Source of the DNA: Candidatus Woesearchaeota archaeon
Lineage (GTDB): Archaea; Nanobdellota; Nanobdellia; Woesearchaeales; GW2011-AR9
Length of the DNA stretch: 64,000 nt
Direction: 5' to 3'
NCBI GenBank assembly: GCA_018655525.1
Contig: JABIJM010000030.1
Span: 28,083 to 92,082, forward strand
Shown: piece after piece, positions 14,642-42,974 of the stretch
How positions within the stretch are numbered: position 1 is the stretch's first letter
Layout: each line of letters opens with the position of its first letter
Notes under the pieces: generated by a model
Seen by the model: the letters and a program-made list of their open reading frames with translations, nothing else
Databases searched by the model: none
What the model was told of the DNA's origin: nothing
Position numbers and translations under genes: made by a program

Positions 14642-14771
14642 TTTATTCTTCCTCCAAATCTAATTTTCAATTTTGGAATATGTTTTCTCGTCAAAACGAA
14701 GATTGTTTTTTAAACCTTTCGTTGTTTTGAGTATGGTTGAGTAACTACACCTAATAACTATTGTAAAATAA

Positions 14772-18506: not shown

Positions 18507-19692
18507 CGGTTTCTAATTGTTTTCTAAACCTTCTCACACGAGGAGATCTTCTTGTTCGTTTTCTTGAACATCGTTCTTTTAATGAATCGTATTTACCTTG
18601 CAAATTACTATAGTCTGAATTGCATTTATTAAGATCATTTACAACCCATCCAACAGATTGTGAATCACCGTTAGCTAAAGTTATCATTCGTTTATCATTA
18701 TCTTGACAGACACCTAATTTTTGCTCTAAAGTCGCTTTAGCTGTATTAGCAGATTTTAATTTACCATCTAATTCAGTTACTTTTGCTTCAGAAGTGTTTA
18801 ATTTTCCACGTGTTGTATCTAATTCAGCCTGTGCTGTCTCGTACAATCCTTTATTTGCATTTGCATCCGCTAATTGTCCAGCATCTGGCCTTTGACTTAA
18901 TACATAAGTAATAGTTGCCAAACCTGCACTTGCAACTAATGCAACACCTGCAACAATTTTTGCAAGGTTTCCATATCCAATTGCCTTTCGTTGAGAATTA
19001 ACATGACCAAGACGTAATCCAGTATAAGATTTTCTTCCTTCTGAACCAAGTTGTAAATAATCAATAACTTTTTCTTCTGCAATCACAACATCATGATTTA
19101 ATGTTATGATAGCGGATCTCTTTTCTCCAAGTTCATTAGTTAAAGAAGCTAACTCAACATTACCTTTATCATCTAATTTTCCATTATCTCTTGATTTTTC
19201 AAGCAGTTTAATATCTTCAAGATCAACAGTATATTCTCCTTCAAGACCTACAAGTGTTAATTTTTTATTATAATAATCACCTTGATCTAAAGATTTATCA
19301 ATCCAAGAATCTACAACTTCTAAACTTCCTGCACCATAAACTTGATTAAGTGAATCATATGCCGCAAGTGCAAATTTAGAGTTATATGCCGCTAATTTGT
19401 CTAATGTATTTACTAAATGAGCTTCAACTTCTCCAATTCCATTATTTTCAAGAACGCCTAATATTCCATCTTTTTTCCTATAAAGACCCCGTACTTCATC
19501 TGCAAATTCATTTACAAATAAAGCCTTAGTATCAGGAAATTGAAGTCCTTCATGTGCATATTTTTTTTCAATTCCTTCAATTCTATCAAGAAGATTGCTT
19601 TGGTATAAAGGAATTGTTACTGTATCGTTAACATTACCGTCGCCAGCACGCTTTGTATCATTATTATTATCAGTCATAATTATAACCCCCAA
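18490..19692 (-). CDS. Coiled-coil protein with one internal TM segment and an Arg-rich C-terminus
   Basis: Long heptad-like region (LEQKLGVC..., LDGKLKSANTAKATLEQKL), TM IVAGVALVASAGLATITYVLS, C-terminal RKRTRRSPRVRRFRK. Confidence 0.4.
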   Translation of the reverse strand: MGVIIMTDNNNDTKRAGDGNVNDTVTIPLYQSNLLDRIEGIEKKYAHEGLQFPDTKALFVNEFADEVRGLYRKKDGILGVLENNGIGEVEAHLVNTLDKLAAYNSKFALAAYDSLNQVYGAGSLEVVDSWIDKSLDQGDYYNKKLTLVGLEGEYTVDLEDIKLLEKSRDNGKLDDKGNVELASLTNELGEKRSAIITLNHDVVIAEEKVIDYLQLGSEGRKSYTGLRLGHVNSQRKAIGYGNLAKIVAGVALVASAGLATITYVLSQRPDAGQLADANANKGLYETAQAELDTTRGKLNTSEAKVTELDGKLKSANTAKATLEQKLGVCQDNDKRMITLANGDSQSVGWVVNDLNKCNSDYSNLQGKYDSLKERCSRKRTRRSPRVRRFRKQLETDEVPY

Positions 19693-21159: not shown

Positions 21160-21864
21160 TTGATTTTTATTTTTAAGACACTCCAATCTTTTGTATTGCG
21201 AAAAGATGAGAGGTCAACGAAAATGAAAAATAAAGAGACATTAGCTGAAATCATTGGAATAATGCTTGGAGATGGTTGTTTGTACAAAGGACACGGATCA
21301 TATCAAACAATAATTACTTCTGGAAAAAATGAAAGAGAGTGGATAATGTATGTTAAAAATTTATTTGAAAACTATTTTGAGAAAACATTTAAAATTGTTG
21401 AAATCAAGTATGGGATTCAAGCAAAATGTCATTCAAAGGAAATTTTAGAGAAATTTTTAGAGGTGGGATTATGTCATGGAAATAAAGTCCATAATAAAGT
21501 CACGATCCCACCCTGGTTATTTCTTAAGAGAAAGTATTTAATTAAAACTGTTCAAGGTTTATTTGATACAGACGGTTGTGTTTATAATAAATATGGGAAA
21601 TATGCTCAAATTGAATTTAAATTTGGTTGTGAAGAAACAACAATATCTGTTTGTAACGCCGTAAGTAATTTGGGTTTTAATACTACAAAAGTTCAAAAAC
21701 AATATAATAATGCAACAGGCAAATATAGGTGGAGATTCTACTTATGTAGACAAAAAGAGATTGATTTATTTTTTGATATAATTAAACCAAAAAATTCTAA
21801 ACATATTGAAAGATATAAAAAAATAAGAAGTGGGGATACTGGGACTTTCAAATGGAAACGTTAA
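21160..21864 (+). CDS. LAGLIDADG homing endonuclease (double-motif; probable start at ATG 21223, MKNKETLAEIIGIMLGDGCL)
   Basis: Two LAGLIDADG motifs (IIGIMLGDGCL; VQGLFDTDGCVY). Paralog of 52946..53662. Confidence 0.7.
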   Translation: MIFIFKTLQSFVLRKDERSTKMKNKETLAEIIGIMLGDGCLYKGHGSYQTIITSGKNEREWIMYVKNLFENYFEKTFKIVEIKYGIQAKCHSKEILEKFLEVGLCHGNKVHNKVTIPPWLFLKRKYLIKTVQGLFDTDGCVYNKYGKYAQIEFKFGCEETTISVCNAVSNLGFNTTKVQKQYNNATGKYRWRFYLCRQKEIDLFFDIIKPKNSKHIERYKKIRSGDTGTFKWKR

Positions 21865-24014: not shown

Positions 24015-24647
24015 CTAAGGAGCTGTACTTCCTGGGATAAGATAATTCATGGGACAACAATTATTCCTCCCCATTTTCTTAACATCATATAGACCTTTAT
24101 CCGCAGAAACAATCATTCTATTTGCCATTTCTTCACGCTCAGTAGAAGAACCCAAATCAATTTTGGGTGTAAGTTTCCCATAAGAATCAACATCTAACGT
24201 TGAAATTCCTGCACTAAAGGTTATTCCTCTCGTAACACCTTCTTTTGGATTAAAAACAACTTTCTTAAAAGCCCAATGTAATCGCTGAAATGTTGCCAAT
24301 GCATTTTCAAAGTTAGTTTCAGGCATAATAATCCCAAACTCTTCTCCCCCATATCGTGCAAAAAGGTCTGTAGCCCTAAGGTGTTTTGAATAGAAATCCG
24401 CTGCCTTTTTAATAACATAATCACCTTCCAAATGACCAAAATTATCATTGTAAGCTTTAAAATTATCAATATCCATCATTGCCAAAGATAAAGGATGTTT
24501 TGATCTATCAAATAACGCAATGTGATATTGTAATTGATCAATAAATGTTCCTTTATTTGCAACTCTCGTCATAGAATCTGTAATTGCCATAGATCTAAAC
24601 TCACTATTAATTAATGCCATTTCAACTCTTGCCAACAAAGAGTCCAT
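24015..24647 (-). CDS. GGDEF domain protein (diguanylate cyclase-like) with an intact GGEEF active site and RxxD I-site
   Basis: ITDSMTRVANKGTF, MMDIDNFKAYNDNFGHLEGD, LRATDLFARYGGEEFGIIMP, ADKGLYDVKKMGRNN. The N-terminus (LLARVEMAL) looks like the last helix of a receiver domain. Confidence 0.75.
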   Translation of the reverse strand: MDSLLARVEMALINSEFRSMAITDSMTRVANKGTFIDQLQYHIALFDRSKHPLSLAMMDIDNFKAYNDNFGHLEGDYVIKKAADFYSKHLRATDLFARYGGEEFGIIMPETNFENALATFQRLHWAFKKVVFNPKEGVTRGITFSAGISTLDVDSYGKLTPKIDLGSSTEREEMANRMIVSADKGLYDVKKMGRNNCCPMNYLIPGSTAP

Positions 24648-24649: not shown

Positions 24650-24940
24650 TTAGAGGTTTCTCATTAAATCTAGTCCATCACGAGGAGTTTTACCAAGATT
24701 TAAATCCATTAAAATGAGATGAGGCTCTGTTTTTTCTAAAAGTTGTTCTAATTCGGGAGCAGAAGAAGCAGTGTATAAACGTTCATATCCTGCACTTTTT
24801 AAAACCAATTCTGTAGTTCTTTGAACAGAAGGTTCGTCATCTACAATAATAATACTATAAAATGGTTTATCTTCAGGAGGAATTCTTTTTGGTCTTACCG
24901 TTGATTTTCCATTATTGTGAATGATATCCATAGCTGCCAT
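24650..24940 (-). CDS. Response-regulator receiver domain, truncated (beta1-beta3 only), immediately upstream of the GGDEF ORF
   Basis: IIIVDDEPSV acidic pocket and LILMDLNLG phospho-acceptor Asp. Stops after about 96 aa. TAA-AT-ATG junction with the GGDEF ORF. Confidence 0.6.
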   Translation of the reverse strand: MAAMDIIHNNGKSTVRPKRIPPEDKPFYSIIIVDDEPSVQRTTELVLKSAGYERLYTASSAPELEQLLEKTEPHLILMDLNLGKTPRDGLDLMRNL

Positions 24941-28263: not shown

Positions 28264-28710
28264 TCAATCTACAATAAAATGATTATTTTCCTCGTTGCTT
28301 TCTGGAACGTGATTTAATCCATCAACAAGTATACTCAAATCCTGACAATTTTTGTTTGAAACATTACTATTTTCCAAAACAACATAAATAGATTCTCTCC
28401 CATAAGAACCAAAAGGTGATGCAATATTGTGTGTATGGACAGAATTAAATTTCTTTCCACCATTGCCAAAATGGTGAATGGTTTGTACATCAAAAGGGAC
28501 ATATATTGCATTTGGCGAATTGTTTACAACATCAAAATGAAAATGGTATTTGGTAGTTTGATTTCCATCCTCTCTCTCAAAATGAACCAGTTCTATTCCT
28601 AAATCAGGAAGACCAACAGAACTTTGAGGTTCAGACTCACAAGCATAAAGCGAACATGCAAGGGCAATCCCTGTAATTACCTTTCTTAATATCACGAGTG
28701 ATATGCACAA
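28264..28710 (-). CDS. Small secreted or membrane-anchored hypothetical protein
   Basis: N-terminal hydrophobic segment VITGIALACSLYAC then a His-rich domain (HFHFDV, HHFGNGG). Confidence 0.35.
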   Translation of the reverse strand: MCISLVILRKVITGIALACSLYACESEPQSSVGLPDLGIELVHFEREDGNQTTKYHFHFDVVNNSPNAIYVPFDVQTIHHFGNGGKKFNSVHTHNIASPFGSYGRESIYVVLENSNVSNKNCQDLSILVDGLNHVPESNEENNHFIVD

Positions 28711-31883: not shown

Positions 31884-33524
31884 ATGAATATTAAAAAAAC
31901 TGTAGCAATAACATTGTTAGTATTGTTTGTACTGAGTATTGTAGGACAAAGCGTATTAGCAGAACCATTTAATCCTAATTTTAATTACGGAGATTATGAA
32001 TTTGAGTTTAAACAAGATTTTTACGATAATGAAATGTTTAATCCAATTGATGCACCTTTCAATAAACTTCCAGCTGAATTTAATACAGCACCAAAATTCA
32101 GTGTAGGTCAAAAATACTTTAATGCGAAAGAAGGAGAAATCTTTACATTCAATATGATTGCAGATGATAAAGAAACAAGTAACTTAAAATTTAGCTTTAA
32201 AGAAAATTTAGACAAAGCATACATTTCCTCAAATGGAAAAGCAGCAAAATTCACATGGACTATTCCTTATACCGCAGTAGAAGGAGATTCAAAATTTCAA
32301 GAAATAAACTTTGTAGTAAGTGATGGACAATCTTTAGATAATATGAAGATTGTTGTAAATATTGAAAATGTGAACAAATTACCTTATATTCAAACATTAA
32401 ATACCTTAACATTTACAGAAAATGAAGTAAATACACATTACATTTATGCATATGATTTAGATGTAATTGATACTGCAAAATTAACTGTAGATGAATCAAC
32501 ATTACCTCAAGGAGCTAAATTTTTACCGAACTCACAAAGTTCAGGAAACATCTTTTGGCAACCAACCTTTGAACAAGGTAACAAAGATTACAAAGTAATA
32601 TTTACAGCAGATGATGGTAAAGGAAAAACCAACAGAGTTGTAACATTCAAAGTTGTTGATAAAAACCAAGCACCAGTAATCACAATTGCAGATCAAACTG
32701 TTACCGCTGGAGCAACATTAGAATTAGATTTAAAGAGCAAAACTTCAGATGCTGATAATGATGCATTAACTATAACTGTTGAAGGAACATTAAAAAACTA
32801 TTTTGATGCAACTTCAGGAAAATTCACATGGAAACCTTCAGTCTTAAACTTAGGTGAACACACATTAACAATTGTTGTTACCGATGGAACAGACGTTGTG
32901 AAGAAAGATGTGAAAATCACAGTTAAAACTTCAGCGGCAAATGGAAATAATAACAACCCAATTCCAGGCGTACCAAAAACAGCTGCTCAGCTAGCATTAG
33001 ATGCAGATTATACAGATTTAAATGTAGATTTCAAAGATTTAGAAAATGACTTTGATGAATACGAAGAAGATTACAATAAAGCAAAGAAAGTAAATAACCT
33101 TAACAATGTTGACAAATATGCTAGTAAACTAGAAAAAGTTGACGACAAGTTAAAGGATCTTCGTAATGAAGTTAAAGATTTCATTGACAAAGCTGAAAAA
33201 ACTGCAGGTAGCAACAAGAATGTTATTGATAACGCTGAAGAATTAAAAAATGATATTGAAGAATTACGTGATGATATTGACGTTGTTTTAGGAAAGAAAA
33301 CCGCAACAACCGTATCTGGAAGCATCTTCAAATCTGGAAGCGTTTCATCTCAAGATTCCAATAAACCTGTTGAAGTAAATATGTTACAGTTCCCTTTAAC
33401 CGGCGGAGCAGTTGCAGACACAACTTCAACTGGCACAGGATTCGGAGAATTAGCATTCTTAATTGGAGGAATTGTAATCTTGTTTACGATTATAATGTTC
33501 CTTTTAGTTGTGTTACTGAAATAA
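31884..33524 (+). CDS. Cell-surface protein: signal peptide, Ig-like repeats, coiled-coil stalk, C-terminal TM anchor
   Basis: Signal MNIKKTVAITLLVLFVLSIVGQSVLA. Repeated beta-sandwich units. DLENDFDEYEEDYNKAKK coiled coil. C-terminal LAFLIGGIVILFTIIMFLLVVLLK. Confidence 0.5.
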   Translation: MNIKKTVAITLLVLFVLSIVGQSVLAEPFNPNFNYGDYEFEFKQDFYDNEMFNPIDAPFNKLPAEFNTAPKFSVGQKYFNAKEGEIFTFNMIADDKETSNLKFSFKENLDKAYISSNGKAAKFTWTIPYTAVEGDSKFQEINFVVSDGQSLDNMKIVVNIENVNKLPYIQTLNTLTFTENEVNTHYIYAYDLDVIDTAKLTVDESTLPQGAKFLPNSQSSGNIFWQPTFEQGNKDYKVIFTADDGKGKTNRVVTFKVVDKNQAPVITIADQTVTAGATLELDLKSKTSDADNDALTITVEGTLKNYFDATSGKFTWKPSVLNLGEHTLTIVVTDGTDVVKKDVKITVKTSAANGNNNNPIPGVPKTAAQLALDADYTDLNVDFKDLENDFDEYEEDYNKAKKVNNLNNVDKYASKLEKVDDKLKDLRNEVKDFIDKAEKTAGSNKNVIDNAEELKNDIEELRDDIDVVLGKKTATTVSGSIFKSGSVSSQDSNKPVEVNMLQFPLTGGAVADTTSTGTGFGELAFLIGGIVILFTIIMFLLVVLLK

Positions 33525-33613: not shown

Positions 33614-33919
33614 TTAATTAAGGACGTCTTCAATTGGTTTTTTTCCTTTTAATTTTTTTGTTGTTGATTTCTTTGCTTCTGCTACTAAATCTACACCTAA
33701 ATCTTTCAATTCTTTAATGTGCATTTGCATTAACTGTTCAACAATTTGTAGGATTCGCATAAACTCTTCGCGTTCTTTTGTTAAGGTTGCAAGAGATCCC
33801 TTATGAAAACCAATTCTTTCTGCATTATCTTGTTTTTTTGCCATACCACTCAAATGCTTGGTTTCTTTATTAAGTTTTTGGCTAAACCCCGAAAACTTTA
33901 AAACCCTTAAGATAATCAT
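33614..33919 (-). CDS. Hypothetical small helical protein (likely start at internal M, MAKKQDNAER...)
   Basis: Lys-rich helical ORF. No family recognised. Confidence 0.3.
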   Translation of the reverse strand: MIILRVLKFSGFSQKLNKETKHLSGMAKKQDNAERIGFHKGSLATLTKEREEFMRILQIVEQLMQMHIKELKDLGVDLVAEAKKSTTKKLKGKKPIEDVLN

Positions 33920-33925: not shown

Positions 33926-34345
33926 ATGGGTGCGTTAAATAAACTAATGTTCTGGAAGAAAGATGATGACTTTGATTTTGATAGTGCATTGAATAAAGAA
34001 ATGACTCCAAGTGACATCCCTCCAATGGATAATCTTGGTTTAGATAGCCAGCCAACAGGCTTAGAAGAAAAATCTCCTTTTGATCATCCTGCACAACCAA
34101 CTGCAACAAGACCTTTTCAACAACAAGCAGCAAGCCCTTATGCTGCTCCTCAACAGCCTCAGCAAGCTTTTCCTTCGCCAGGTCAACCTTTACAAAGACC
34201 GGGATTTCAGCAACCTCCACCGCAAAATAATGATCTCATAAGTAGTAAATTAGATACCATTAAAGCACAATTAAGTTCTATTGAACAGCGTCTTGTAAAC
34301 TTAGAAAGAGCTGCGGGCGTACAGCAACAGAAAAAGTTATGGTAA
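33926..34345 (+). CDS. Gln/Pro-rich low-complexity protein with a C-terminal coiled coil
   Basis: PQQPQQAFPSPGQPLQRPGFQQPPPQ then LDTIKAQLSSIEQRLVNLERA. Preferred over the overlapping minus-strand ORF 33924..34220. Confidence 0.35.
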   Translation: MGALNKLMFWKKDDDFDFDSALNKEMTPSDIPPMDNLGLDSQPTGLEEKSPFDHPAQPTATRPFQQQAASPYAAPQQPQQAFPSPGQPLQRPGFQQPPPQNNDLISSKLDTIKAQLSSIEQRLVNLERAAGVQQQKKLW

Positions 34346-34782
34346 ATTATAAAAAATTCTTTTGGAGTATTGTGACTTTAGTTGTAGTTTTAGATCAATT
34401 AACAAAGTATTTGATTTCTACGTTTAAACCAAACCTTGATTTGGTTCTGCTCAAAATCCATTATCTTACAAACACAGGAGCAGGATTCAGTATTCTTACG
34501 GGAAAAACGTGGATTCTAGCGATAATATCATTGATTGTGATTATAGGATTAATCTATTATTACAAAGATATTCCTAAACAAAAGACACCACAATTATTAT
34601 TTGCGTTATTTCTTGGAGGTGCAATTGGAAATTTTATTGATAGGGCACTTAGAAATTATGTCATAGATTTTATTGACTTCGGTTGGTGGCCAGCATTTAA
34701 TATTGCAGATATGGCATTGACAATCTCTGTGGTTGGATTAATTCTATATTACATTATAGAAGAAAAAAGTAACAAAAAATAA
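34339..34782 (+). CDS. lspA: Lipoprotein signal peptidase (signal peptidase II)
   Basis: NTGAGFSIL, LGGAIGNFIDRA, VIDFIDFGWWPAFNIADMALT are the LspA conserved boxes, including the catalytic Asp pair context. Confidence 0.8.
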   Translation: MVNYKKFFWSIVTLVVVLDQLTKYLISTFKPNLDLVLLKIHYLTNTGAGFSILTGKTWILAIISLIVIIGLIYYYKDIPKQKTPQLLFALFLGGAIGNFIDRALRNYVIDFIDFGWWPAFNIADMALTISVVGLILYYIIEEKSNKK

Positions 34783-34786: not shown

Positions 34787-35347
34787 TCACTCAACACATT
34801 GATGAGCTTTATATCCTGATTCCCATGCATCTTCTTTCTCTGCAAACCATGTTTGACGATCTTTCTTAATCTTCTTTGCCCATTCACATTTCGGTGCATG
34901 ATAAATATTACTTTTGCTACTTGCAACATATTTGCCTGGAGAATGTTTCGTTAATGCTTTCGTTACAACTGGATCAAAGACCATGCTGTGAGGTTCTTCT
35001 TGTTTAGGTGTTAGTTTTTTAGATTCTTTTTTCCGTGGAAAAGATAACAAGAATCCAATTACTGAAAGTAAACCTAATGTTGCATAAAGTGTACCATTAA
35101 ATGTCCAAAGTAATACGAGATTTCCCAAATATGCTAAGAATACAAAGAAAAATAAATTTTCTCCCCATCCATCTTTGTATGCAATAAATCCAAGAAGTAC
35201 TAAAAAACCTAACCCTAAGAATCCAATTAATTCTAACGTAAAGAATAAACCACTTCCATTTACAAATAACTGCACAAATGCTAAAAATAATACTAAAATT
35301 AACACTCCATAAATAAATAATTTAAATGAACTTTTTTCGTTTGCCAT
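34787..35347 (-). CDS. Polytopic membrane protein with a C-terminal Ada-like Zn-binding domain
   Basis: 4-5 TM segments, then YHAPKCEWAKKIKKDRQTWFAEKEDAWESGYKAHQC, the pattern of the Ada metal-binding domain (HxxxC...F...A...G.+.C). Confidence 0.4.
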   Translation of the reverse strand: MANEKSSFKLFIYGVLILVLFLAFVQLFVNGSGLFFTLELIGFLGLGFLVLLGFIAYKDGWGENLFFFVFLAYLGNLVLLWTFNGTLYATLGLLSVIGFLLSFPRKKESKKLTPKQEEPHSMVFDPVVTKALTKHSPGKYVASSKSNIYHAPKCEWAKKIKKDRQTWFAEKEDAWESGYKAHQCVE

Positions 35348-35414: not shown

Positions 35415-35732
35415 TTAGAATTCGTCTTCAAGATTTTTCAAGAAACCCTTACGTTTTAAGAATGCAACTTCTGCTTTACTTCTATATTTATAGACAACAT
35501 CTCCTTTCGCATCGCCACCAAGTTCCCAAGGTTCAATGATTACAATATTTTTCTCACGGACCCATAAAGCTCTCCGTAATCTTCCTGGAATTCTACAAAT
35601 ACGTTCTTTTCCATCAAGACATTGCACACGCATTCTACTTCCACCTAAACGTTGTTGTACAACTCCTAGAATTTCTTTTCCTTTTGGAATCCGTACCCTT
35701 ACTACTTGTGGTTCTTCTGGTTGATGTGCCAT
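35415..35732 (-). CDS. eif1a: Translation initiation factor aIF-1A
   Basis: RVRIPKGKEILGVVQQRLGGSRMRVQCLDGKERICRIPGRLR..WVREKNIVIIEPWEL matches the eIF1A OB-fold. Confidence 0.9.
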   Translation of the reverse strand: MAHQPEEPQVVRVRIPKGKEILGVVQQRLGGSRMRVQCLDGKERICRIPGRLRRALWVREKNIVIIEPWELGGDAKGDVVYKYRSKAEVAFLKRKGFLKNLEDEF

Positions 35733-35906: not shown

Positions 35907-36893
35907 ATGATTATTTCCATAAGAACAATACTAATCAAACAACAAAAGACATTTAAACAACCCACCTCCCAAGAATGTATGGCAAAGAGGTTAGAGTCCC
36001 CATCATCAATTAATACATTCAAGCAATGTAAGAGAAAATATTATTATCAATATATTGAAAAACTTCCAACTTCTTCCTCCATTCATTTAGTACGAGGAAA
36101 CATTGCCCATTCTGTGTTAGAAGATTTCTATGACATCAACATTGCAGATTTTAACGAAGAGAATTATCAACTTAAATTCAAAGAAGCAATTCAAAAATTA
36201 TTATTGTATCAATGGAATAAATATAAATCAGGATTAGATGAGTTAGAATTATCTCCAGACCAAATTACATTCTATTTTGAAGAAACAATGTTTATGCTTA
36301 TGAATTGGTGTAACCAATTTTTGGAAGAATTTGATAGAATGCGTAAAGAAAAAGATATTTCTATGGGAGAAACATTCATGAAACTTACACCAATCAGAGA
36401 ATTGCAATATAAATCTGAAGAACATCACGTACGTGGATTTATAGATGCAATCCAACACACCGAGAATGAAGTCCACATTATAGATTATAAAACAAATGCG
36501 AAATTTGATTTTAAGCAAAGTATTAAGCTCCAACTTGCAATTTATTCAATGATGTATTATGAAAAACATGGAAAAATGCCAAACAAAGTAGGCATATTCT
36601 TTTTACGTCAAAAGTTAAGAATGATGGATGTTGATATGAATCTAATTGAAATGGCAAAGAAAGAGATTACGGAAGTACATGAACACACATCATCCTGTGA
36701 ACATGCACACGAATATCCAAGAACAATTACACCTTTATGTAAATGGAGAACTGGAGAATGTAATTTCTATGCAGTTTGTAAACCCAAAGAAACAAATGAA
36801 GAACAAGAACGTATGATTTTTGAAGAAAAGAATAGAACCTCAGAAAAAATAGAAATTAAAGAAAATAAAAGCAAATTGAGTGCATTCTTCTAA
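35907..36893 (+). CDS. Cas4/RecB-like PD-(D/E)XK nuclease with a C-terminal Cys cluster (likely start at ATG 35982, MAKRL...)
   Basis: FIDAIQHTENEVHIIDYKTNAK (D...EXK) and C-terminal SCEHAHEY...CKWRTGECNFYAVC. Confidence 0.5.
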   Translation: MIISIRTILIKQQKTFKQPTSQECMAKRLESPSSINTFKQCKRKYYYQYIEKLPTSSSIHLVRGNIAHSVLEDFYDINIADFNEENYQLKFKEAIQKLLLYQWNKYKSGLDELELSPDQITFYFEETMFMLMNWCNQFLEEFDRMRKEKDISMGETFMKLTPIRELQYKSEEHHVRGFIDAIQHTENEVHIIDYKTNAKFDFKQSIKLQLAIYSMMYYEKHGKMPNKVGIFFLRQKLRMMDVDMNLIEMAKKEITEVHEHTSSCEHAHEYPRTITPLCKWRTGECNFYAVCKPKETNEEQERMIFEEKNRTSEKIEIKENKSKLSAFF

Positions 36894-37828
36894 GCAAACG
36901 CCCTTATACTCAACCGAATAATCTCATTGTAAATGTCTACATTATCTAAGACCCATGCTTCTACACCTGCTCCTAAAAGCAAAAATAATAATGCAAATAG
37001 CAAGAGATAAAGATTAAATCCAAAGACTTCAAAGAAACGGTCAGATGCAAATTTTTCTAGCACTACATCTTTAGAGATTACACTTCCTGAAATGGCCGCA
37101 AGGAAATAAGACATTCCTTCAATCATCATGTGAGGAAATACTATTAACATGATTAATCCAAATATCACTAAAGGGTTACCTCCAATTACGGAAGCTGCTC
37201 CTTTGGCTGTAATACCAAAGATCGTGCCCCAGACCGAAGCATTCCATGAGATTAAGAATATTGCACCATCTCCCGTAAGTAGAGCCATGATAAAACATGC
37301 CATCAGCACAAGGAAATTATTTTCCAATAAGCCAAAGAATAATCTCCAACTCCATGTAAATTTATCAGCAAAGAAATTTGATTGTAATTCTCCTTCACCT
37401 ATTTGTAGTTCTCCCGTAGGTAAATCTCCATGGAACCTAATCTCTAATTGTTCCCGAAATAAAGAGTTTGTTTGCATTGCTGGCAAAAACATAGCGCCAA
37501 CACTATATACTAAAATCATACCTAAGAAAAGGAATACATAGATACGTACTAATTCTATATCATCCCTCCAAAGAGCTTTCATGGTAATTTTCTGTTCCAT
37601 ACTTTCTTTACGCTCTTCAATTGAAAAAATCTTATACAATTCTGGTAAAAGGAATAATGATGTAAATGCGACTGCAACTAATGCAGGATCTGAAGGAAAT
37701 AACCAGGCTGCAATCAATACTGCAACAACCGAATACATTGCACCAAGTAAAAATGCGTACCTTCCTTTATGTTCTAACCAATCTTCTGGGAATATGTGTT
37801 CTAATACCATTTTAGAAGCCACCTCCAA
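36890..37828 (-). CDS. SpoIIM/DUF95-like integral membrane protein (paralog 2)
   Basis: Shared N-terminus MVLEHIFPEDWLEHKG and TM layout with 37812..38681. Confidence 0.45.
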   Translation of the reverse strand: MEVASKMVLEHIFPEDWLEHKGRYAFLLGAMYSVVAVLIAAWLFPSDPALVAVAFTSLFLLPELYKIFSIEERKESMEQKITMKALWRDDIELVRIYVFLFLGMILVYSVGAMFLPAMQTNSLFREQLEIRFHGDLPTGELQIGEGELQSNFFADKFTWSWRLFFGLLENNFLVLMACFIMALLTGDGAIFLISWNASVWGTIFGITAKGAASVIGGNPLVIFGLIMLIVFPHMMIEGMSYFLAAISGSVISKDVVLEKFASDRFFEVFGFNLYLLLFALLFLLLGAGVEAWVLDNVDIYNEIIRLSIRAFA

Positions 37829-38681
37829 TACTTAACGCTTCTTTTAACCCTTCAGCAAACACAGAAACATTTGCTGAGAACCATGATTCAACACCTACAC
37901 CGATGAGTAGAATAACTAATCCTACCAATAAAAGGTAAAGGTTAAAACCAAAAACTTCAAAGAAACGATGAGAAGCAAATTGTTCTAATAACACATCTTT
38001 TGAGATTATGCTTCCCGCAATAGCTGCGCAAGCATATGATGCTACTGTGATTAACGATATTAGTAAAACACTTCCTATGAAAATTAAAGAGTTTACTATT
38101 GTTGCTGTGTCTCCTGTGAATAATCCTAACCAGAAATGTGATCCGAATAATAAAAGTGTTCCAAATACGGAAGCTTTCCATGTTATTAAGAAAACTGCCC
38201 CATCACCAGTTAATAATGCGATTAAAAAGATTGCAAGAAGGAAGAATAAGTTCTTTTTTAGGAGCAATAAAAAGCCGCCAGTAGAAATTGCCTGAATTTG
38301 TGTATTGAATAACATGTTACTCATGTGAGGGATAATTTTTGGAAGAAGTAATGGAACTAATGCATATGCGACAACAATAGAGACAAATAACGTTAAATAA
38401 ATTTTAACCATACCCATATCGTCTTTCCAAATTTCTAATAATGTGATTTTTTGTTCTAAACTCTCTTTACGTTCTTCAATTGAAAATATTTTGTAAAGTT
38501 CTGGTAAAATAAGTAATGCTGTAAATGCAACCGCAACAAGCATTGGATCTGTAGGGAATAATGCACCTGCAATCGCAAGCCCAATTGTGGAATAGATAAA
38601 ACCTAATAAGAATACAAATAGAATGGACATGAAACCTTTTCTTTCTAACCAATCTTCTGGAAATATGTGTTCTAAAACCAT
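37812..38681 (-). CDS. SpoIIM/DUF95-like integral membrane protein (paralog 1)
   Basis: MVLEHIFPEDWLERKG... Tandem duplicate of the downstream gene. Conserved ILPELYKIFSIEERKES block. Confidence 0.45.
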   Translation of the reverse strand: MVLEHIFPEDWLERKGFMSILFVFLLGFIYSTIGLAIAGALFPTDPMLVAVAFTALLILPELYKIFSIEERKESLEQKITLLEIWKDDMGMVKIYLTLFVSIVVAYALVPLLLPKIIPHMSNMLFNTQIQAISTGGFLLLLKKNLFFLLAIFLIALLTGDGAVFLITWKASVFGTLLLFGSHFWLGLFTGDTATIVNSLIFIGSVLLISLITVASYACAAIAGSIISKDVLLEQFASHRFFEVFGFNLYLLLVGLVILLIGVGVESWFSANVSVFAEGLKEALSIGGGF

Positions 38682-38819: not shown

Positions 38820-39677
38820 ATGTTTAAATCTCAGATAAAAACAGTACTATTATTAGGAGGATTAACAGGTCTCCTTCTAGGAATTGGACAAATTCTTGGT
38901 GGAAGACAAGGATTAATTATAGGGTTATTATTTGCTGGAGGAATAAATTTTTTCTCGTATTGGTTCTCAGATAAAATTGTGTTGAAAATGTACAAAGCAA
39001 AAGAAGCTGATCAATCTCAACATTCTGATTTATACCAAATGGTAAGGGAAATTACTTCACATGCAAAACTTCCAATGCCTAAAATTTATGTGATTGAAAC
39101 ACAACAAGCAAACGCATTTGCAACTGGACGTAATCCAAAACATGCAGCAGTTGCTGTCACAACAGGTATCACACAATTATTAACAAAAAGCGAACTTAAA
39201 GGCGTTCTTGCACATGAAATAGCACACGTAAAAAATAGAGACATCTTAATTTCATCCGTAGCAGCAACAGTTGCAGGAGTTATTTCATATCTTGCGATGA
39301 TAGCACGATGGGGTGCAATCTTCGGAGGATTCGGTGGAAGAGATAATGATAACGGGGGCATTGTAGAATTATTAGTATTAGCAATTGTTGCGCCCATCAT
39401 GGCATTAATAATCCAAATGGCAATTTCTAGAAGTAGAGAATTCTTAGCAGATGAAACAGGTGCAAAATTAATCAGAGACCCTTATTCACTTGCATCAGCT
39501 TTGGAAAAAATAGAAGCAAACGTTAACCATTTCCCTCTTAAAAAAATGGGATCAACAGAAGCAACTGCTCACATGTTTATCCACCATCCATTTAGAGGAA
39601 AAAGTATGTTCAAGATGTTTTCTACACATCCCTCTACAAAAGAAAGAACAAAAAAATTACGTGCAATGAAACTTTAA
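38820..39677 (+). CDS. htpX: HtpX-like M48 zinc metalloprotease
   Basis: HEIAHVKNRD (HExxH), N-terminal TM pair, downstream E...Gly-rich TM, C-terminal THPSTKERTKKL. Confidence 0.85.
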   Translation: MFKSQIKTVLLLGGLTGLLLGIGQILGGRQGLIIGLLFAGGINFFSYWFSDKIVLKMYKAKEADQSQHSDLYQMVREITSHAKLPMPKIYVIETQQANAFATGRNPKHAAVAVTTGITQLLTKSELKGVLAHEIAHVKNRDILISSVAATVAGVISYLAMIARWGAIFGGFGGRDNDNGGIVELLVLAIVAPIMALIIQMAISRSREFLADETGAKLIRDPYSLASALEKIEANVNHFPLKKMGSTEATAHMFIHHPFRGKSMFKMFSTHPSTKERTKKLRAMKL

Positions 39678-40007: not shown

Positions 40008-40358
40008 ATGATCACAATATACTACAACTCAAAATGTAGCAAATGTAGACAAACGCTTGCATTATTACAAGAAAAAACAGATGAAGAGATTAATATCATT
40101 GAATATCTAAAAACGCCACCTTCAATTGAAGAACTTCAACAAATCCTACAAAAATTAAATCTAAATCCTCAAGAGATCATCAGAAAAGGTGAAGAAGAAT
40201 TTCAAGAATTTAAGGGAAAAGAATTCTCAGATAAAGAATGGATCCAGATATTACACGATCACCCAAAATTAATTCAACGACCAATTGTAATTATAAATGA
40301 GAAAGCAGTTATTGCACGACCACCAGAAAATGTGTTAAAAATATTACAACTCCCGTAA
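40008..40358 (+). CDS. ArsC/Spx-family thioredoxin-fold protein
   Basis: MITIYYNSKCSKCRQTLALL (CxxC near the N-terminus), IQRPIVIINEKAVIARP. 116 aa. Confidence 0.7.
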   Translation: MITIYYNSKCSKCRQTLALLQEKTDEEINIIEYLKTPPSIEELQQILQKLNLNPQEIIRKGEEEFQEFKGKEFSDKEWIQILHDHPKLIQRPIVIINEKAVIARPPENVLKILQLP

Positions 40359-42974
40359 CTTCTTCAAGGTATCATCAACATGTGTTTTCTTTTCCTTAAT
40401 TGCTTTTGGAGATCCACCACCATGCCATGTAAATCGTGGACGCATTTGTACAGGGAAAATACGTTCATTTGCATCATCAAAGACAACTGCTGCTCCTTTC
40501 ACACGCGGGAGATGATCTATTTCATCTACCAATCCAGTACGCATGTAACTCTGTGTTAATTGTCCTAACGCCTCTGTATCCATTTGTGCTGTTAATCTAT
40601 GAGCAAGAACCGTATCTGATTGTGTCATAACATCTGTGTGAATTTTTGCAGGTTGTTGAGTTGCAAGAATTAAACTGATTCCTGGTTGACGTCCTTCACG
40701 TAAAATTGTAATTAATGCATCTGAAGCTGCTGTTTTTCCATCATGAGGAAGAAGTTCATGTGCTTCATCAATTGCGAGCCATACTAACGGTTCTGTCATT
40801 TTTTCTTCAGTATCTTTAGAAAAATAATGCATTGCAGCATCTACAGATTTGAATTCTTCTGTCTTTCGTGCAAGCATTCTTTGATTAAACAATGTCCGAC
40901 TAATTAAACCTACAACTAACGCTTTAATTTCCCAACCAGAAGCCATAGTTGCATAAGGAGAAACATCTAAAACAGTTACTTGACCGCCTGCAACAATATC
41001 CTTCAAGGGGGTTCCTTCTTTAGAAAAAATACCCCATCCTTTTGCTTTTTGAAATTGATTTTCAACAATATTTCTTACAACTTTTTCTGAATCTTTTTCT
41101 TGAGAGATAAGAGAAATGAGTTCTTCCATATCATAAGACTCATTTTTATCTTTTAAATTTTGAACCACTTTTGAAATAAGAACACCTTCAGCAGTATTCA
41201 ATGAAATGTCAAATGCCCGACTCCAGTCTAAAGGATCAACATCAATTGGACGTATTGAAAACGGAAAATCTGTAGGGATTCCTTGTTCTTTATATTTGTA
41301 AAAGAAACCTGAAGGGGTATAAATTTTGACATCTAATGCCTTTGGATCAAATCCCCATTGTTTCACGAGATCTGAGTCTTGAAGATTAGGATATTTCATT
41401 GTCCAATAAATACCCATCGTATCCAATAAAACAATAGAAAGGTTTTGTTTGATTTCAACGGGTAAATCCGCTAAACCTTCTGCAATAGAACCCATGGTGT
41501 ATGAATTATGAACAATGATACCATTAGCAACAAAATTGTGAGTTTCAGGAACAGTAATGTCATAAACAGTTTCATTTCCTTCAATTTCTTTGATAGCCAC
41601 TATTTCATCCCAAAAAATATCTGAATTCGCAAACTTAGAAAGTAAATCAGATTCATCTGCAACAGCAATTTGTAATAATTTTTGTCGTGAAGGAGAATAT
41701 TTTGTACTTTCACGTAAAGCTTTAGGATGAGCATAACCCATCTTCCTTCCAATTGCTGCCCAATTATCTGGTTTATACATATCCCAAATTTCTTTTGGAA
41801 CAGTATCAACATTAGGGTTTCTAATAATTTTCACTGATTCTTTTAAAGCAATTACAGAACGTTCTTCTTTTTTACCATAAAAACCTATCTCCTGAAGATA
41901 CGTGTTAACATTTTCTCCATAAATCTCCAATTCATTAGCCTCAAATCCCTTTTGATTAACTTTTTTACGGATTTTAGCTACAATTCCGAAACGTAATAAT
42001 AAATGTTGTACCTGAGAAATTAATTGATCAGAAATAGAACAATAACTTACAAACCAATGATTTGCTTTTTTGTAAATTGTCCCATCGCAAGAAAACAAAC
42101 GATTTAAAAATAAACTAATTTGATGTTTTGGCATTGTAAAAATACAATCAGGAACAAATTTTGTTAAAGACCTAGTCTCATAAAGTTTAAGTTCTTCAAG
42201 CCAATTACGTATTGATGAATGATCCCATTTTGGATTGTTAATAAATTGTCCATTCTCATCTCTTGAACTTTGCTCTTTCATTACTTTTTTGATTTGGGAA
42301 ACTCTAAAGCAAGAATCATCACTGTGCCGTTCAATTCTTAAATTATCATCAAAATCATAAACTGATTGTTTAAAATCTGAAACAATTTTTTGATCTTTAT
42401 TAGAAAATAAAACAAATCTATTTCCTAAATGGCCTTCAGCAATAAGATAAGCTAAAAGTTTAACTTCACATTCCTTTATTGATAAATCACCAAAAGATTC
42501 CAATTTACGTGGTGTTGCAACTCTTGAACCTATATTCAATTTTTCTATTGGAGACCAACCCTTAACAGTTAACAATGGATGCTCCGGAGTTAATTTAATG
42601 ATTTTACCGGTTCTAAACTTAACTTCAAATATTCGATCAACCTCCCTTTTATAAAAGTGAGATTTTTGACCTTCTTGAATCTTAAAATCAGAATTTAAAG
42701 TATAAATATTTTGATTCTTTTCTTCTAAATCTTTAATTTTTACAAGAGAACCATCATCAAGTGTAATTAAAGTATCACCATGAAGACATTTTCCACTCCC
42801 TCTTTTGCCGACGATAAAGACAACATGCGCTCCTGCGACATCCATGTACACAGGATTAGAAAGAGATGTGGTTTGACCCATCTTAACATATTGTTTTCCA
42901 ATAAGAACGGTTCCTTCCTTGCCAAACTTTTCCACGTCTTTTTTGCTTCTGCCGATAATAACATCAAACACCAT
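40344..42974 (-). CDS. HerA/DUF87-type P-loop ATPase (FtsK-HerA superfamily) interrupted by an intein in the Walker A motif
   Basis: Extein: VVFIVGKRGSGK|SYTMGS (Walker A), LAIDEAHELLP (Walker B), ILATQQPAKI (DUF87 ATQRP-like). Extein total about 448 aa. Confidence 0.6.
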   Translation of the reverse strand: MVFDVIIGRSKKDVEKFGKEGTVLIGKQYVKMGQTTSLSNPVYMDVAGAHVVFIVGKRGSGKCLHGDTLITLDDGSLVKIKDLEEKNQNIYTLNSDFKIQEGQKSHFYKREVDRIFEVKFRTGKIIKLTPEHPLLTVKGWSPIEKLNIGSRVATPRKLESFGDLSIKECEVKLLAYLIAEGHLGNRFVLFSNKDQKIVSDFKQSVYDFDDNLRIERHSDDSCFRVSQIKKVMKEQSSRDENGQFINNPKWDHSSIRNWLEELKLYETRSLTKFVPDCIFTMPKHQISLFLNRLFSCDGTIYKKANHWFVSYCSISDQLISQVQHLLLRFGIVAKIRKKVNQKGFEANELEIYGENVNTYLQEIGFYGKKEERSVIALKESVKIIRNPNVDTVPKEIWDMYKPDNWAAIGRKMGYAHPKALRESTKYSPSRQKLLQIAVADESDLLSKFANSDIFWDEIVAIKEIEGNETVYDITVPETHNFVANGIIVHNSYTMGSIAEGLADLPVEIKQNLSIVLLDTMGIYWTMKYPNLQDSDLVKQWGFDPKALDVKIYTPSGFFYKYKEQGIPTDFPFSIRPIDVDPLDWSRAFDISLNTAEGVLISKVVQNLKDKNESYDMEELISLISQEKDSEKVVRNIVENQFQKAKGWGIFSKEGTPLKDIVAGGQVTVLDVSPYATMASGWEIKALVVGLISRTLFNQRMLARKTEEFKSVDAAMHYFSKDTEEKMTEPLVWLAIDEAHELLPHDGKTAASDALITILREGRQPGISLILATQQPAKIHTDVMTQSDTVLAHRLTAQMDTEALGQLTQSYMRTGLVDEIDHLPRVKGAAVVFDDANERIFPVQMRPRFTWHGGGSPKAIKEKKTHVDDTLKKLREL
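41505..42788 (-). mobile_element. Intein (428 aa) with an embedded LAGLIDADG homing-endonuclease domain
   Basis: Starts CLHGDTLITLDDG and ends IIVHN|S. Internal LLAYLIAEGHLGN and LNRLFSCDGTIY motifs. Inserted after the Lys of GKRGSGK. Confidence 0.7.

What the first reader, a model, noticed from the sequence alone, without database searches (positions are those of the whole stretch)
34339..34782. Signal peptidase II (LspA) is present, completing a bacterial-type lipoprotein pathway
All LspA boxes are present (NTGAGFSIL, GGAIGNFIDR, FIDFGWWPAFNIADMAL). Together with Lgt 28 kb away, this gives the genome the two dedicated steps of bacterial lipoprotein maturation. The gene lies between a Q/P-rich coiled-coil protein and a membrane protein carrying an Ada-like Zn domain, not next to lgt. 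This argues against a single recent operon transfer.
Basis: partly seen in the sequence, partly recalled or inferred. Interest (0 to 1): 0.65.

Follow-up and report, generated by a model that had tools for sequence, protein, structure and literature searches.

The report
Bacterial-type lipoprotein signal peptidase in an archaeon
The gene is a genuine, intact lipoprotein signal peptidase (LspA) which, together with an intact Lgt and lipobox-bearing secreted proteins, gives a DPANN (Woesearchaeota) archaeon the bacterial lipoprotein pathway that recent reviews say archaea lack.

Summary
ORF 34339..34782 (+, 147 aa) is a canonical LspA. It passes the Pfam PF01252 and TIGR00077 cutoffs, keeps every conserved LspA residue including the Asp dyad (D110/D124), and its model superposes on solved LspA structures. 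Lgt (6310..7098) is equally intact, and 3-4 of about 10 signal-peptide proteins in the window carry a lipobox.

The host is an archaeon: aIF-1A, aIF5B, ABCE1/RLI, Hef, Topo VI and over-long tRNA genes are all present. GenBank already names the identical protein "signal peptidase II [Candidatus Woesearchaeota archaeon]".

The gene is not a contaminant and not a recent arrival. Its base composition matches the host. It lies two genes from aIF-1A in independent assemblies and in relatives down to about 40% identity. lgt is always unlinked, 270 kb away on one 797-kb contig.

One new detail: lspA forms a translationally coupled pair (7-nt ATGGTAA overlap) with a conserved small protein of unknown function.

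The "Ada-like Zn domain" of the other neighbour is not supported by any HMM.

Literature from 2018 and 2025 states that no archaeal Lgt/Lsp homologues exist, so this is an unremarked exception. It is a new member of a known family, and the lipid donor is an open question.

The parts
34339..34782 (+). lspA: lipoprotein signal peptidase (signal peptidase II, peptidase A8), 147 aa. Catalytic dyad D110/D124.
   Evidence: PF01252 119.2 bits. TIGR00077 115.5 against 73.95. PDB 6ryo E 1.5e-22. 18 invariant columns in 27 archaeal-clade sequences, including D19 K23 N45 G47 N98 D101 R102 D110 F120 N121 A123 D124. AF2 pLDDT 91.9 with 4 TM helices. Foldseek TM 0.87 to 6ryp.
33926..34345 (+). Conserved small partner gene ('QP', 139 aa). 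It has an N-terminal MGxLNKLMFWKKDDDFDFD motif, a poorly conserved P/Q-rich linker modelled with low confidence, a C-terminal amphipathic helix (SSKLDxxK...QR..N.E) and a terminal Trp. Function unknown.
   Evidence: No Pfam hit. 62 clusters, all hypothetical proteins of Woesearchaeota/Nanoarchaeota. The profile finds 1092 50%-clusters at E<=1e-10. Invariant columns are listed. AF2 gives only one confident helix, residues 100-129. It sits directly upstream of Peptidase_A8 in 4 of 5 QP-anchored look-ups.
34339..34345 (+). 7-nt overlap ATGGTAA. The QP reading frame ends ..L W stop and the lspA frame starts M V N, which indicates translational coupling.
   Evidence: Sequence read directly. The same W-stop/start overlap occurs in 13 of 23 archaeal loci, and a 4-nt ATGA overlap in 2 more.
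33889..33905 (+). Possible archaeal BRE/TATA element (cgaaaactttaaaaccc) about 25 nt upstream of the QP start codon. Inferred promoter of the QP-lspA pair.
   Evidence: Read by eye from the sequence. Not tested.
6310..7098 (+). lgt: prolipoprotein diacylglyceryl transferase, 262 aa. This is the step before LspA.
   Evidence: PF01790 E 8.2e-67. TIGR00544 188.7 against 118.9. E. coli 5azb E 7.7e-32, with Y26, H103, R143, N146, E151, G154 and R239 kept and E243->D. The same residues are invariant in 29 archaeal-clade Lgt sequences.
7115..7474 (+). Predicted lipoprotein substrate (119 aa) starting 17 nt after the lgt stop codon. N-terminus MRHILLIVITLLFLVGC.
   Evidence: Lipobox rule match. No Pfam hit.
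50769..51335 (+). Predicted lipoprotein substrate: an extracytoplasmic cyclophilin-type peptidyl-prolyl isomerase. N-terminus MKTTILILGLLTVLFIAGC.
   Evidence: Lipobox rule. PF00160 E 1.5e-52.
17805..18506 (-). Predicted lipoprotein substrate (lipobox ...ASALGGC, best read from the internal Met).
   Evidence: Lipobox rule. No Pfam hit.
28264..28710 (-). Weak or uncertain lipobox protein (..IALAC / SLYAC).
   Evidence: It matches the loose PS51257-like rule only. It has a faint CARDB hit.
34787..35347 (-). Conserved neighbour: a membrane protein with about 3 hydropathy-predicted TM segments and a C-terminal domain with invariant H150, C154, H182, C184. Function unknown, and it is not demonstrably Ada-like.
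   Evidence: No Pfam or NCBIfam hit even at E<=10. No Ada match in the PDB by sequence or by profile. Invariant columns are listed. Syntenic in L006-L010, L012, L014 and L088.
35415..35732 (-). aIF-1A, an archaeal translation initiation factor. It is the housekeeping anchor of the conserved lspA neighbourhood.
   Evidence: PF01176. NF003084 119.1 against 91. It lies within about 0.4-2.6 kb of lspA (5 kb in L010) in 13 relatives' loci plus the window.
12128..13219 (-). Geranylgeranyl reductase family flavoprotein. This is context for the lipid-donor question, because it points to isoprenoid lipid handling.
   Evidence: TIGR02032 164.3 against 158.8. It is below the cutoffs of the DGGGPL-reductase equivalogs.

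Best explanation
This is a functional lspA gene of bacterial ancestry that is fixed in the chromosome of a Woesearchaeota (DPANN) archaeon.

Proposed mechanism:
- Secreted proteins with an L-x-G/A-C lipobox are exported.
- Lgt (6310..7098) attaches a glyceryl-lipid to the Cys thiol.
- LspA, a four-helix membrane aspartyl protease using D110 and D124, then cuts off the signal peptide just before the lipidated Cys. The protein is left anchored to the single archaeal membrane.
- No N-acyltransferase (Lnt) is encoded in the window. The product would therefore resemble the two-chain lipoproteins of bacteria that lack Lnt (inference from the window only).

History and arrangement:
- lspA is co-transcribed and translationally coupled with a conserved small cytoplasmic protein (QP) of unknown role.
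- Both lgt and lspA were acquired long ago, are inherited vertically across this archaeal clade, and are unlinked.

Shown here: family membership, intact catalytic residues, fold, archaeal host, presence of substrates, conserved synteny. Inferred: enzymatic activity in vivo, order of the steps, and the nature of the lipid donor.
For: Family and active site:
- HMM scores exceed the curated cutoffs.
- Both Asp and all conserved LspA residues are invariant over 27 clade members that average 49% column identity.
- The AF2 model (pLDDT 91.9) matches only LspA structures in the PDB, TM 0.75-0.87.

Lgt:
- HMM scores exceed the cutoffs, and essential residues are kept in the window protein and in 29 clade members.

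Substrates:
- There are 4 lipobox N-termini among about 10 signal-peptide proteins in the window. The same pattern occurs internally only twice in about 20,000 residues.
- Related archaeal loci carry lipobox ORFs at 7/325, similar to bacterial loci at 20/947.

Archaeal host:
- aIF-1A, RLI, archaeal-type GluRS, Hef, aIF5B, aEF-1beta, Topo VI A/B, RIO1 and DnaG-type Toprim are present.
- Three tRNA genes are 97-117 nt long.
- GenBank names the identical protein as Woesearchaeota.

Not chimeric:
- The identical lspA/aIF-1A arrangement is found in at least 6 independent assemblies.

Old and vertical:
- The QP-lspA-(membrane protein)-aIF-1A-nuclease order is kept in loci with 40-58% LspA identity.
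- LspA and aIF-1A identities fall together.
- GC is 0.295 and GC3 0.243, against 0.327+-0.028 and 0.206+-0.038 for window genes.
- Both genes sit on one 796,844-bp contig, 270 kb apart.

Coupling with QP:
- The 7-nt overlap is conserved in 13 of 23 loci.
Against: - No biochemical evidence exists.
- Woesearchaeota are reported to lack GGGP and DGGGP synthases and probably scavenge their lipids (PMC8421398). It is therefore unknown whether a phosphatidylglycerol-type donor with the stereochemistry Lgt uses in bacteria is available.
- In Haloferax the lipoprotein anchor is thioether-linked archaeol installed by AliA/AliB, not by Lgt (PMC12462473).
- The rest of the genome could not be searched, so AliA, Lnt and lipid synthesis genes remain unknown.
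- The NJ tree of 81 LspA sequences does not resolve archaeal monophyly: 0 of 200 bootstraps.
- One of the four window lipoboxes is weak.
Confidence: 0.85

Rival explanations
1. LspA is active, but its partner lipidation step uses archaeal ether lipids. Either the acquired Lgt has adapted to archaetidylglycerol-type donors, or a native AliA-like enzyme supplies archaeol-modified substrates. The anchor would then be archaeol rather than diacylglycerol.
For: - A geranylgeranyl reductase family gene lies in the window.
- Archaeol thioether anchors have been demonstrated in Haloferax (PMC12462473).
- The archaeal Lgt clade has its own invariant features: E243->D and two extra invariant Cys, C156 and C168.
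Against: - Lgt keeps all residues tied to phosphatidylglycerol use in E. coli.
- No AliA candidate was recognised in the window, though AliA could not be searched by sequence.
- The stereochemistry of archaeal lipids is opposite.
Confidence: 0.35
2. The genes are decaying or repurposed relics of transfer, and there is no working lipoprotein pathway.
For: - DPANN genomes carry many bacterial genes of unclear use.
- The protein is short (147 aa), with a trimmed extracellular loop compared with S. aureus LspA.
Against: - All catalytic and conserved residues of both enzymes are invariant across deep clades.
- The ORFs are intact in every locus.
- The operon overlap is conserved.
- Canonical lipobox substrates are present.
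Confidence: 0.05
3. This is a recent horizontal transfer into this one genome, as single genes or a broken operon.
For: - The closest non-archaeal LspA sequences, from Bacillota, Chloroflexota and Anaerolineae, are 35-46% identical.
- lgt GC3 is about 2 sd above the window mean.
Against: - About 100 archaeal clusters span 41-100% identity.
- Synteny with aIF-1A is kept at 40-58% identity.
- lspA composition is host-like.
- The best 120 Lgt clusters are all 55-100% identical, and every named one is archaeal.
Confidence: 0.03
4. A bacterial contaminant or chimeric assembly places a bacterial lspA on an archaeal contig.
For: None beyond the bacterial ancestry of the family.
Against: - lspA lies two genes from aIF-1A and lgt two genes from RLI/ABCE1.
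- The same joins appear in NCBI, JGI and several ENA assemblies.
- The same order is found in divergent relatives.
Confidence: 0.01

Closest known systems
Bacterial LspA (signal peptidase II, MEROPS A8; structures 6ryo/6ryp from S. aureus and 5dir from P. aeruginosa)
   Same: - The same Pfam and TIGRFAM family, above cutoffs.
- The same Asp dyad and conserved residue set.
- The same four-helix fold with a beta-cradle (TM 0.75-0.87).
- Lgt and lipobox proteins are present in the same genome.
   Different: - The host is a DPANN archaeon with a single membrane and, presumably, ether lipids.
- The protein is shorter (147 aa against 160-190), with trimmed extracellular loops.
- The gene is fused by a 7-nt overlap to a lineage-specific small protein, not to lgt, ileS or other usual bacterial neighbours.
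- No Lnt is seen nearby.
Bacterial Lgt (E. coli 5azb/5azc)
   Same: TIGR00544 is above its cutoff. Y26, H103, R143, N146, E151, G154 and R239 are conserved.
   Different: - E243 is Asp throughout the archaeal clade.
- The head region is shorter.
- Two clade-specific invariant Cys are present.
- The gene is unlinked to lspA.
- The lipid donor in an archaeal membrane is unknown.
Archaeal lipoprotein lipidation by AliA/AliB (arCOG02177/02178; Haloferax volcanii, PMC12462473)
   Same: The task is the same: a thioether lipid anchor on the lipobox Cys of archaeal secreted proteins. That paper notes archaeal genomes with many predicted lipoproteins but no AliA/AliB.
   Different: - AliA/AliB are not detectably homologous to Lgt.
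- No archaeal lipoprotein signal peptidase has been identified in that system.
- Here the enzymes are the canonical bacterial ones.
- The presence of AliA in this genome could not be tested.

Membership tests
LspA / signal peptidase II (Pfam PF01252, TIGR00077, MEROPS A8) | Profile HMM score above the curated family cutoffs over the full length | tested here: met
   PF01252 scores 119.2 bits against 25, covering profile positions 1-141 of 142. TIGR00077 scores 115.5 against 73.95.
LspA / signal peptidase II (Pfam PF01252, TIGR00077, MEROPS A8) | Catalytic aspartate dyad (P. aeruginosa D124/D143) and the surrounding conserved residues | tested here: met
   D110 (VIDFI) and D124 (FNIAD) align to the catalytic Asp of 6ryo and 9emz. 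D19, K23, N45, G47, A48, G94, G97, N98, D101, R102, V108, D110, F111, P118, F120, N121, A123 and D124 are invariant in 27 clade members. The P. aeruginosa residue numbers come from my own knowledge of the 5dir paper.
LspA / signal peptidase II (Pfam PF01252, TIGR00077, MEROPS A8) | Four transmembrane helices with an extracytoplasmic beta-cradle fold | tested here: met
   The AF2 model has pLDDT 91.9, helices 5-29, 57-77, 82-105 and 122-146, and strands 32-45 and 108-113. Foldseek against the PDB finds only LspA entries at E<1e-8, TM 0.75-0.87.
LspA / signal peptidase II (Pfam PF01252, TIGR00077, MEROPS A8) | Cleaves lipid-modified prolipoproteins before Cys+1 and is inhibited by globomycin | not testable with these tools
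   This needs biochemistry or complementation.
LspA / signal peptidase II (Pfam PF01252, TIGR00077, MEROPS A8) | Lgt and lipobox substrates co-occur in the same genome | tested here: met
   Lgt is at 6310..7098. Lipobox proteins are at 7115, 17805, 50769 and, weakly, 28264. Lgt and LspA lie on one 797-kb contig of a relative.
Lgt (PF01790, TIGR00544) | HMM score above cutoff and the essential residues Y26, N146, G154, R143, E151, R239, E243 (E. coli numbering) | tested here: met
   TIGR00544 scores 188.7 against 118.9. In the alignment to 5azb all are kept except E243->D. The equivalents are invariant in 29 archaeal sequences. The list of essential residues comes from my own knowledge of the E. 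coli mutagenesis and structure papers.
Lgt (PF01790, TIGR00544) | Uses phosphatidylglycerol as the diacylglyceryl donor | not testable with these tools
   The membrane lipids of this organism are unknown. Woesearchaeota reportedly lack GGGPS and DGGGPS (PMC8421398).
Lnt (apolipoprotein N-acyltransferase), third step of the Gram-negative pathway | A polytopic membrane protein of about 500 aa with a CN-hydrolase domain | tested here: inconclusive
   It is absent from the window. Of the ORFs of 400 aa or more, all have other assignments except 18490..19692, which gave no Pfam hit and which I judged non-membrane by eye. The rest of the genome was not available.
AliA/AliB archaeal lipidation enzymes (arCOG02177/02178) | Sequence membership in the arCOG | not tested
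   No AliA sequence or profile could be obtained with these tools, and the supplement is not held.
Ada N-terminal Zn-binding domain (PF02805), claimed for the neighbour 34787..35347 | HMM or sequence match to the Ada Zn domain, and a Cys4 site | tested here: not met
   There is no Pfam or NCBIfam hit even at E<=10. No Ada entry appears in PDB searches with the sequence or a 7-sequence profile. The conserved ligand candidates are H150, C154, H182 and C184, not Cys4.
LolCDE lipoprotein-release transporter (for the ABC genes just upstream of the window) | Scores above the TIGR02211, TIGR02212 and TIGR02213 cutoffs | tested here: not met
   LolD scores 237.5 against 307.75. lolCE scores about 62 against 362. 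The best match is the generic MacB type.

The most novel reading that the evidence does not exclude
A whole order-level clade of DPANN archaea runs a bacterial Lgt-LspA pathway on a non-bacterial membrane. Two things could follow. The acquired Lgt may have crossed the 'lipid divide' and now transfer an ether-linked archaeol-type moiety. Alternatively, these lipid-scavenging archaea may carry bacterial-type phosphatidylglycerol in their membranes. In addition, the translationally coupled small protein QP would be a previously unrecognised, lineage-specific LspA partner. This would be the 'additional archaeal lipoprotein pathway' that the AliA/AliB study (PMC12462473) says is yet to be discovered, and the first identifiable archaeal lipoprotein signal peptidase.
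Probability: 0.3. Interest if true: 0.75.

Novelty: new member of a known kind. Interest (0 to 1): 0.55.

Why it matters
A 2018 review (PMC6098224) and a 2025 primary paper (PMC12462473) on archaeal lipoproteins both state that no archaeal homologues of Lgt, signal peptidase II or Lnt have been identified. From this they argue that archaea need different enzymes because of their different lipids. The 2025 paper also notes archaeal genomes with many predicted lipoproteins but no AliA/AliB.

This window, together with roughly a hundred related LspA clusters and more than a hundred Lgt clusters named Woesearchaeota or Nanoarchaeota, shows that canonical, intact, long-resident Lgt and LspA do exist in one large archaeal lineage. 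That lineage is thought to be unable to make its own lipids.

This makes a concrete question testable: which lipid does a bacterial-type Lgt attach in an archaeon, and can LspA process it? The gain is limited in two ways. The family assignment itself is routine and already present in GenBank annotation. Bacterium-to-DPANN gene transfer is also common.

Tried and rejected
1. A neighbour-joining tree of 81 LspA sequences with 200 bootstraps. The first attempt timed out. The second was unresolved: archaeal monophyly got 0/200, and there were two archaeal groups with support below 0.6. I therefore make no claim about the donor phylum or a single origin from the tree, and rely on synteny instead.

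2. The Ada-like Zn domain of the neighbour. Pfam and NCBIfam at E<=10 and PDB searches with sequence and profile all found nothing.

3. A LolCDE reading of the MacB/FtsX ABC genes just upstream of the window. They fall below all Lol cutoffs.

4. Supplementary tables of PMC12462473, to see which DPANN genomes lack AliA. They are not held.

5. Orthologues of the four window lipoproteins in other loci, to test conservation of the lipobox Cys. None lay within the fetched flanks.

6. Pfam annotation of the window's 3' third through the look-up of encoding contigs. It returned only a 2-kb contig, so I used direct hmmscan instead.

7. Literature searches pairing DPANN, Woesearchaeota or Nanoarchaeota with Lgt, LspA or signal peptidase II. 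The only papers co-mentioning DPANN or these taxa with the enzyme terms are the two versions of the AliA/AliB study and the 2018 review, which state that no archaeal homologue is known.

8. SpoIIM adjacency as a functional clue. It is conserved only in the closer relatives, so I treat it as plain synteny.
Full report
**1. The observation**

An ORF runs from ATG at 34339 to a stop ending at 34782 on the + strand and encodes 147 aa.
- Pfam PF01252 (Peptidase_A8) matches with E 2.1e-34, 119.2 bits against a cutoff of 25, over essentially the whole profile.
- The NCBIfam equivalog TIGR00077 lspA scores 115.5 bits against a cutoff of 73.95.
- The only solved structures matched by sequence are LspA of S. 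aureus (6ryo, E 1.5e-22) and of P. aeruginosa (5dir, 9emz).

**2. Active site and fold**

I aligned 27 relatives with 39-84% identity to the window protein. Eighteen columns are invariant: M1, D19, K23, N45, G47, A48, L60, S64, G94, G97, N98, D101, R102, V108, D110, F111, P118, F120, N121, A123 and D124 are listed. These include the two catalytic aspartates, D110 in VIDFI and D124 in FNIAD. They align to the catalytic Asp of the crystallised enzymes.

An AlphaFold2 model built on that alignment has mean pLDDT 91.9. It shows four long helices plus two short beta elements. Foldseek against the PDB returns only LspA entries (6ryp, 6ryo, 5dir) with TM-scores of 0.75-0.87. Nothing else scores below E = 1.

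The protein is 10-40 residues shorter than the crystallised enzymes because extracellular loops are trimmed (alignment).

**3. The rest of the pathway**

Lgt is at 6310..7098 (+).
- PF01790 gives E 8.2e-67, and TIGR00544 gives 188.7 bits against 118.9.
- Against E. coli Lgt (5azb, E 7.7e-32), the residues I know to be essential or important are kept: Y26, H103, R143, N146, E151, G154 and R239. E243 is replaced by Asp.
- The equivalents are invariant in 29 archaeal-clade Lgt sequences: Y21, H97, R137, N140, E145, G148, R213 and D217. Two clade-specific Cys, C156 and C168, are also invariant.

The lgt start lies 28,029 nt upstream of the lspA start.

No Lnt-like gene is in the window. Every ORF of 400 aa or more has another assignment except 18490..19692, which gave no Pfam hit and which I judged non-membrane by eye. 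The remainder of the genome could not be examined.

**4. Substrates**

I applied a PROSITE-PS51257-like rule to the window's 83 non-overlapping ORFs. It finds four lipobox N-termini:
- 7115..7474 (LFLVGC), starting 17 nt after the lgt stop codon;
- 50769..51335 (FIAGC), a cyclophilin-type PPIase with PF00160 E 1.5e-52;
- 17805..18506 (ALGGC);
- 28264..28710, a weak case.

About six other proteins have signal-peptidase-I-type signal peptides. The same pattern occurs only twice in about 20,000 internal residues. About 0.15 N-terminal matches are therefore expected by chance.

In 20 related archaeal loci the rule finds 7 of 325 ORFs, one of which is probably false. That rate is like the 20 of 947 found in the bacterial loci fetched alongside.

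**5. The host is an archaeon**

Two genes from lspA lies aIF-1A (PF01176; NF003084 119.1 against 91). The window also encodes:
- RLI/ABCE1, an archaeal/eukaryotic-type GluRS, and Hef, a helicase-ERCC4-HhH fusion;
- aIF5B, aEF-1beta and Trm1;
- topoisomerase VI A and B, RIO1, a Pno1-like KH protein and a DnaG-type Toprim protein;
- three tRNA genes of 97-117 nt, long enough to hold introns.

The identical LspA is deposited as 'signal peptidase II [Candidatus Woesearchaeota archaeon]' (MBT3836639.1 and others). The near-identical Lgt is deposited as MBT3836607.1. Woesearchaeota is an archaeal phylum of the Nanobdellati/DPANN.

**6. Not an artefact and not recent**

The same order, QP-lspA-membrane protein-aIF-1A-nuclease, was assembled independently in JGI, NCBI (GCA_018672075.1) and several ENA samples. 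The same holds for the lgt region.

In species-representative genomes, the best LspA matches are 18 loci labelled Woesearchaeota, Nanoarchaeota/Nanoarchaeia, 'uncultured Methanosarcinales' or 'Methanobacteriota'. I doubt the last two labels. After them come Syntrophomonadaceae, Chloroflexota and Bacillota.

tblastn over these loci gives three results.
- QP is directly upstream of lspA in L006-L012, L014, L027 and L071.
- aIF-1A lies within about 0.4-2.6 kb of lspA (5 kb in L010) in 13 relatives' loci.
- LspA identity falls in step with aIF-1A identity: 44-55% where aIF-1A is 71-82%, and 40-46% where aIF-1A is 56-61%.

No archaeal locus has lgt within 10 kb, whereas eight bacterial loci have lspA and lgt adjacent. 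On one 796,844-bp contig of a relative, LspA (52% identical) and Lgt (57% identical) lie 270 kb apart. Each has the same kind of archaeal neighbours as in the window.

Composition is host-like. lspA has GC 0.295 and GC3 0.243, against window-gene means of 0.327+-0.028 and 0.206+-0.038. lgt is slightly high in GC3, about 2 sd.

The 120 best Lgt clusters are all 55-100% identical, and every named one is archaeal. About 100 LspA clusters precede the first named bacterium.

A distance tree of 81 LspA sequences is unresolved. The argument for old, vertical inheritance therefore rests on synteny, co-divergence and composition, not on phylogeny.

**7. A conserved operon partner**

The upstream gene (33926..34345, 139 aa) ends ..K-K-L-W-stop. 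Its last seven nucleotides, ATGGTAA, also encode the M-V-N start of LspA.
- The same Trp-stop/start overlap is present in 13 of 23 archaeal loci. A 4-nt ATGA overlap occurs in two more. This explains why almost all clade LspA proteins begin with MV followed by a residue whose codon starts with A.
- The protein family has invariant F9, W10, S107, K108, L109, D110 and E127, and a terminal Trp present in at least 90% of members. The P/Q-rich middle is variable.
- It has no Pfam match.
- The 62 word-search relatives are all hypothetical proteins of Woesearchaeota or Nanoarchaeota. A profile search finds 1092 50%-identity clusters at E<=1e-10.
- The AlphaFold2 model is low-confidence (mean pLDDT 60) except for one helix, residues 100-129.

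I looked up five family members without reference to LspA. Four are followed by a Peptidase_A8 gene. One is followed by a 608-aa DsbA/GILT-type thioredoxin protein. The function of QP is unknown. I infer only co-expression with LspA. A BRE/TATA-like element about 25 nt upstream of its ATG was read by eye and not tested.

**8. The other neighbour**

34787..35347 (minus strand) encodes a membrane protein with about three hydropathy-predicted TM segments. Its C-terminal domain has invariant P137, G138, K139, Y140, S143, H150, K153, C154, W156, W167, A174, K180, H182 and C184. No Pfam or NCBIfam family matches it even at E<=10. Neither its sequence nor a 7-sequence profile finds Ada in the PDB. 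'Ada-like' is therefore a resemblance of motif only. A His2Cys2 metal site is possible.

**9. Comparison with what is known**

As a protein, this is an ordinary member of the LspA family, and GenBank's pipeline already names it so. What is not ordinary is the host.
[quoted passage not shown] It shows a thioether-archaeol anchor. [quoted passage not shown]
- Full-text searches found no paper linking DPANN, Woesearchaeota or Nanoarchaeota with Lgt or signal peptidase II other than these.
- Woesearchaeota are reported to lack GGGP and DGGGP synthases and probably obtain lipids from partners (PMC8421398).
- The window does carry a geranylgeranyl-reductase family gene (TIGR02032 164.3 against 158.8).

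Which lipid this Lgt transfers is thus an open and testable question.

**10. Verdict**

It is a new member of a known family in an unexpected domain of life. It is long-resident, is paired with an intact Lgt and plausible substrates, and is coupled to a conserved small protein of unknown role.

Interest is moderate. The result contradicts a repeated statement in the archaeal lipoprotein literature and sets up a clean lipid-divide experiment. However, the assignment is routine, it already exists in database annotation, and gene flow from bacteria into DPANN archaea is common.

Noticed in passing
window 24015..24647 (-) and 24650..24940 (-): A GGDEF diguanylate-cyclase domain protein (PF00990, 120 bits) sits next to a stand-alone response-regulator receiver. 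To my knowledge, cyclic-di-GMP signalling genes are unusual in archaea, so this may be another bacterial-type acquisition in the same genome.
   Followed up: partly
L086 896..4109 (immediately upstream of window position 1; the window starts inside the last gene): A MacB_PCD/FtsX-type ABC transporter with two permease genes plus one ATPase, an architecture like LolCDE. All three score below the LolC/D/E cutoffs and match the generic MacB type best.
   Followed up: yes
window 36890..37828 (-), 37812..38681 (-), 38820..39677 (+): Two paralogous SpoIIM-like membrane proteins and an HtpX protease lie 2-4 kb from lspA. This arrangement is kept in the closer relatives L008, L009, L012, L088 and L090. 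PMC12462473 reports that AliA genes of other archaea are also often next to SpoIIM (arCOG01994). This may be coincidence or a shared link to membrane-protein maturation.
   Followed up: partly
L095 3001..5302 (GCA_964444505.1): One member of the QP small-protein family is followed by a 608-aa DsbA/GILT/thioredoxin protein rather than by LspA. That is another extracytoplasmic protein-maturation enzyme.
   Followed up: partly
window 9716..9832, 52628..52727, 53619..53715 (+): Rfam finds three tRNA genes that are 117, 100 and 97 nt long. ARAGORN calls only one of them, with an odd anticodon. They presumably contain archaeal introns.
   Followed up: no
window 21160..21864 (+), 52946..53662 (+), 40344..42974 (-): There are two free-standing LAGLIDADG endonuclease-like ORFs. 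The second runs into the tRNA gene at 53619. There is also an 876-aa HerA/FtsK-like ATPase interrupted by an intein with its own LAGLIDADG domain.
   Followed up: partly
window 6310..7098 (Lgt residues C156 and C168): Two cysteines in the extracytoplasmic part of Lgt are invariant in all 29 archaeal-clade sequences (motif WCV...CRHPS). I did not recognise them in the E. coli alignment. They may form a clade-specific disulfide.
   Followed up: no
window 12128..13219 (-): A geranylgeranyl reductase family protein passes the TIGR02032 cutoff but is far below the cutoffs of the digeranylgeranylglycerophospholipid reductase equivalogs. The lineage is said to lack the ether-lipid synthases (PMC8421398).
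   Followed up: partly
window 427..1710 (-), 13313..18506 (-), 31884..33524 (+): Several large secreted proteins carry CARDB, He_PIG, Big_9 or cadherin-like Ig domains. They have signal-peptidase-I-type signal peptides, and some have a C-terminal hydrophobic anchor. They are probably surface or adhesion proteins of the episymbiont type.
   Followed up: no
window 33614..33919 (-): A small, highly conserved protein lies divergent from the QP-lspA pair. It is 64-78% identical in L007 and L008, and its true start is probably the internal MAKKQDN. It has no family assignment.
   Followed up: no
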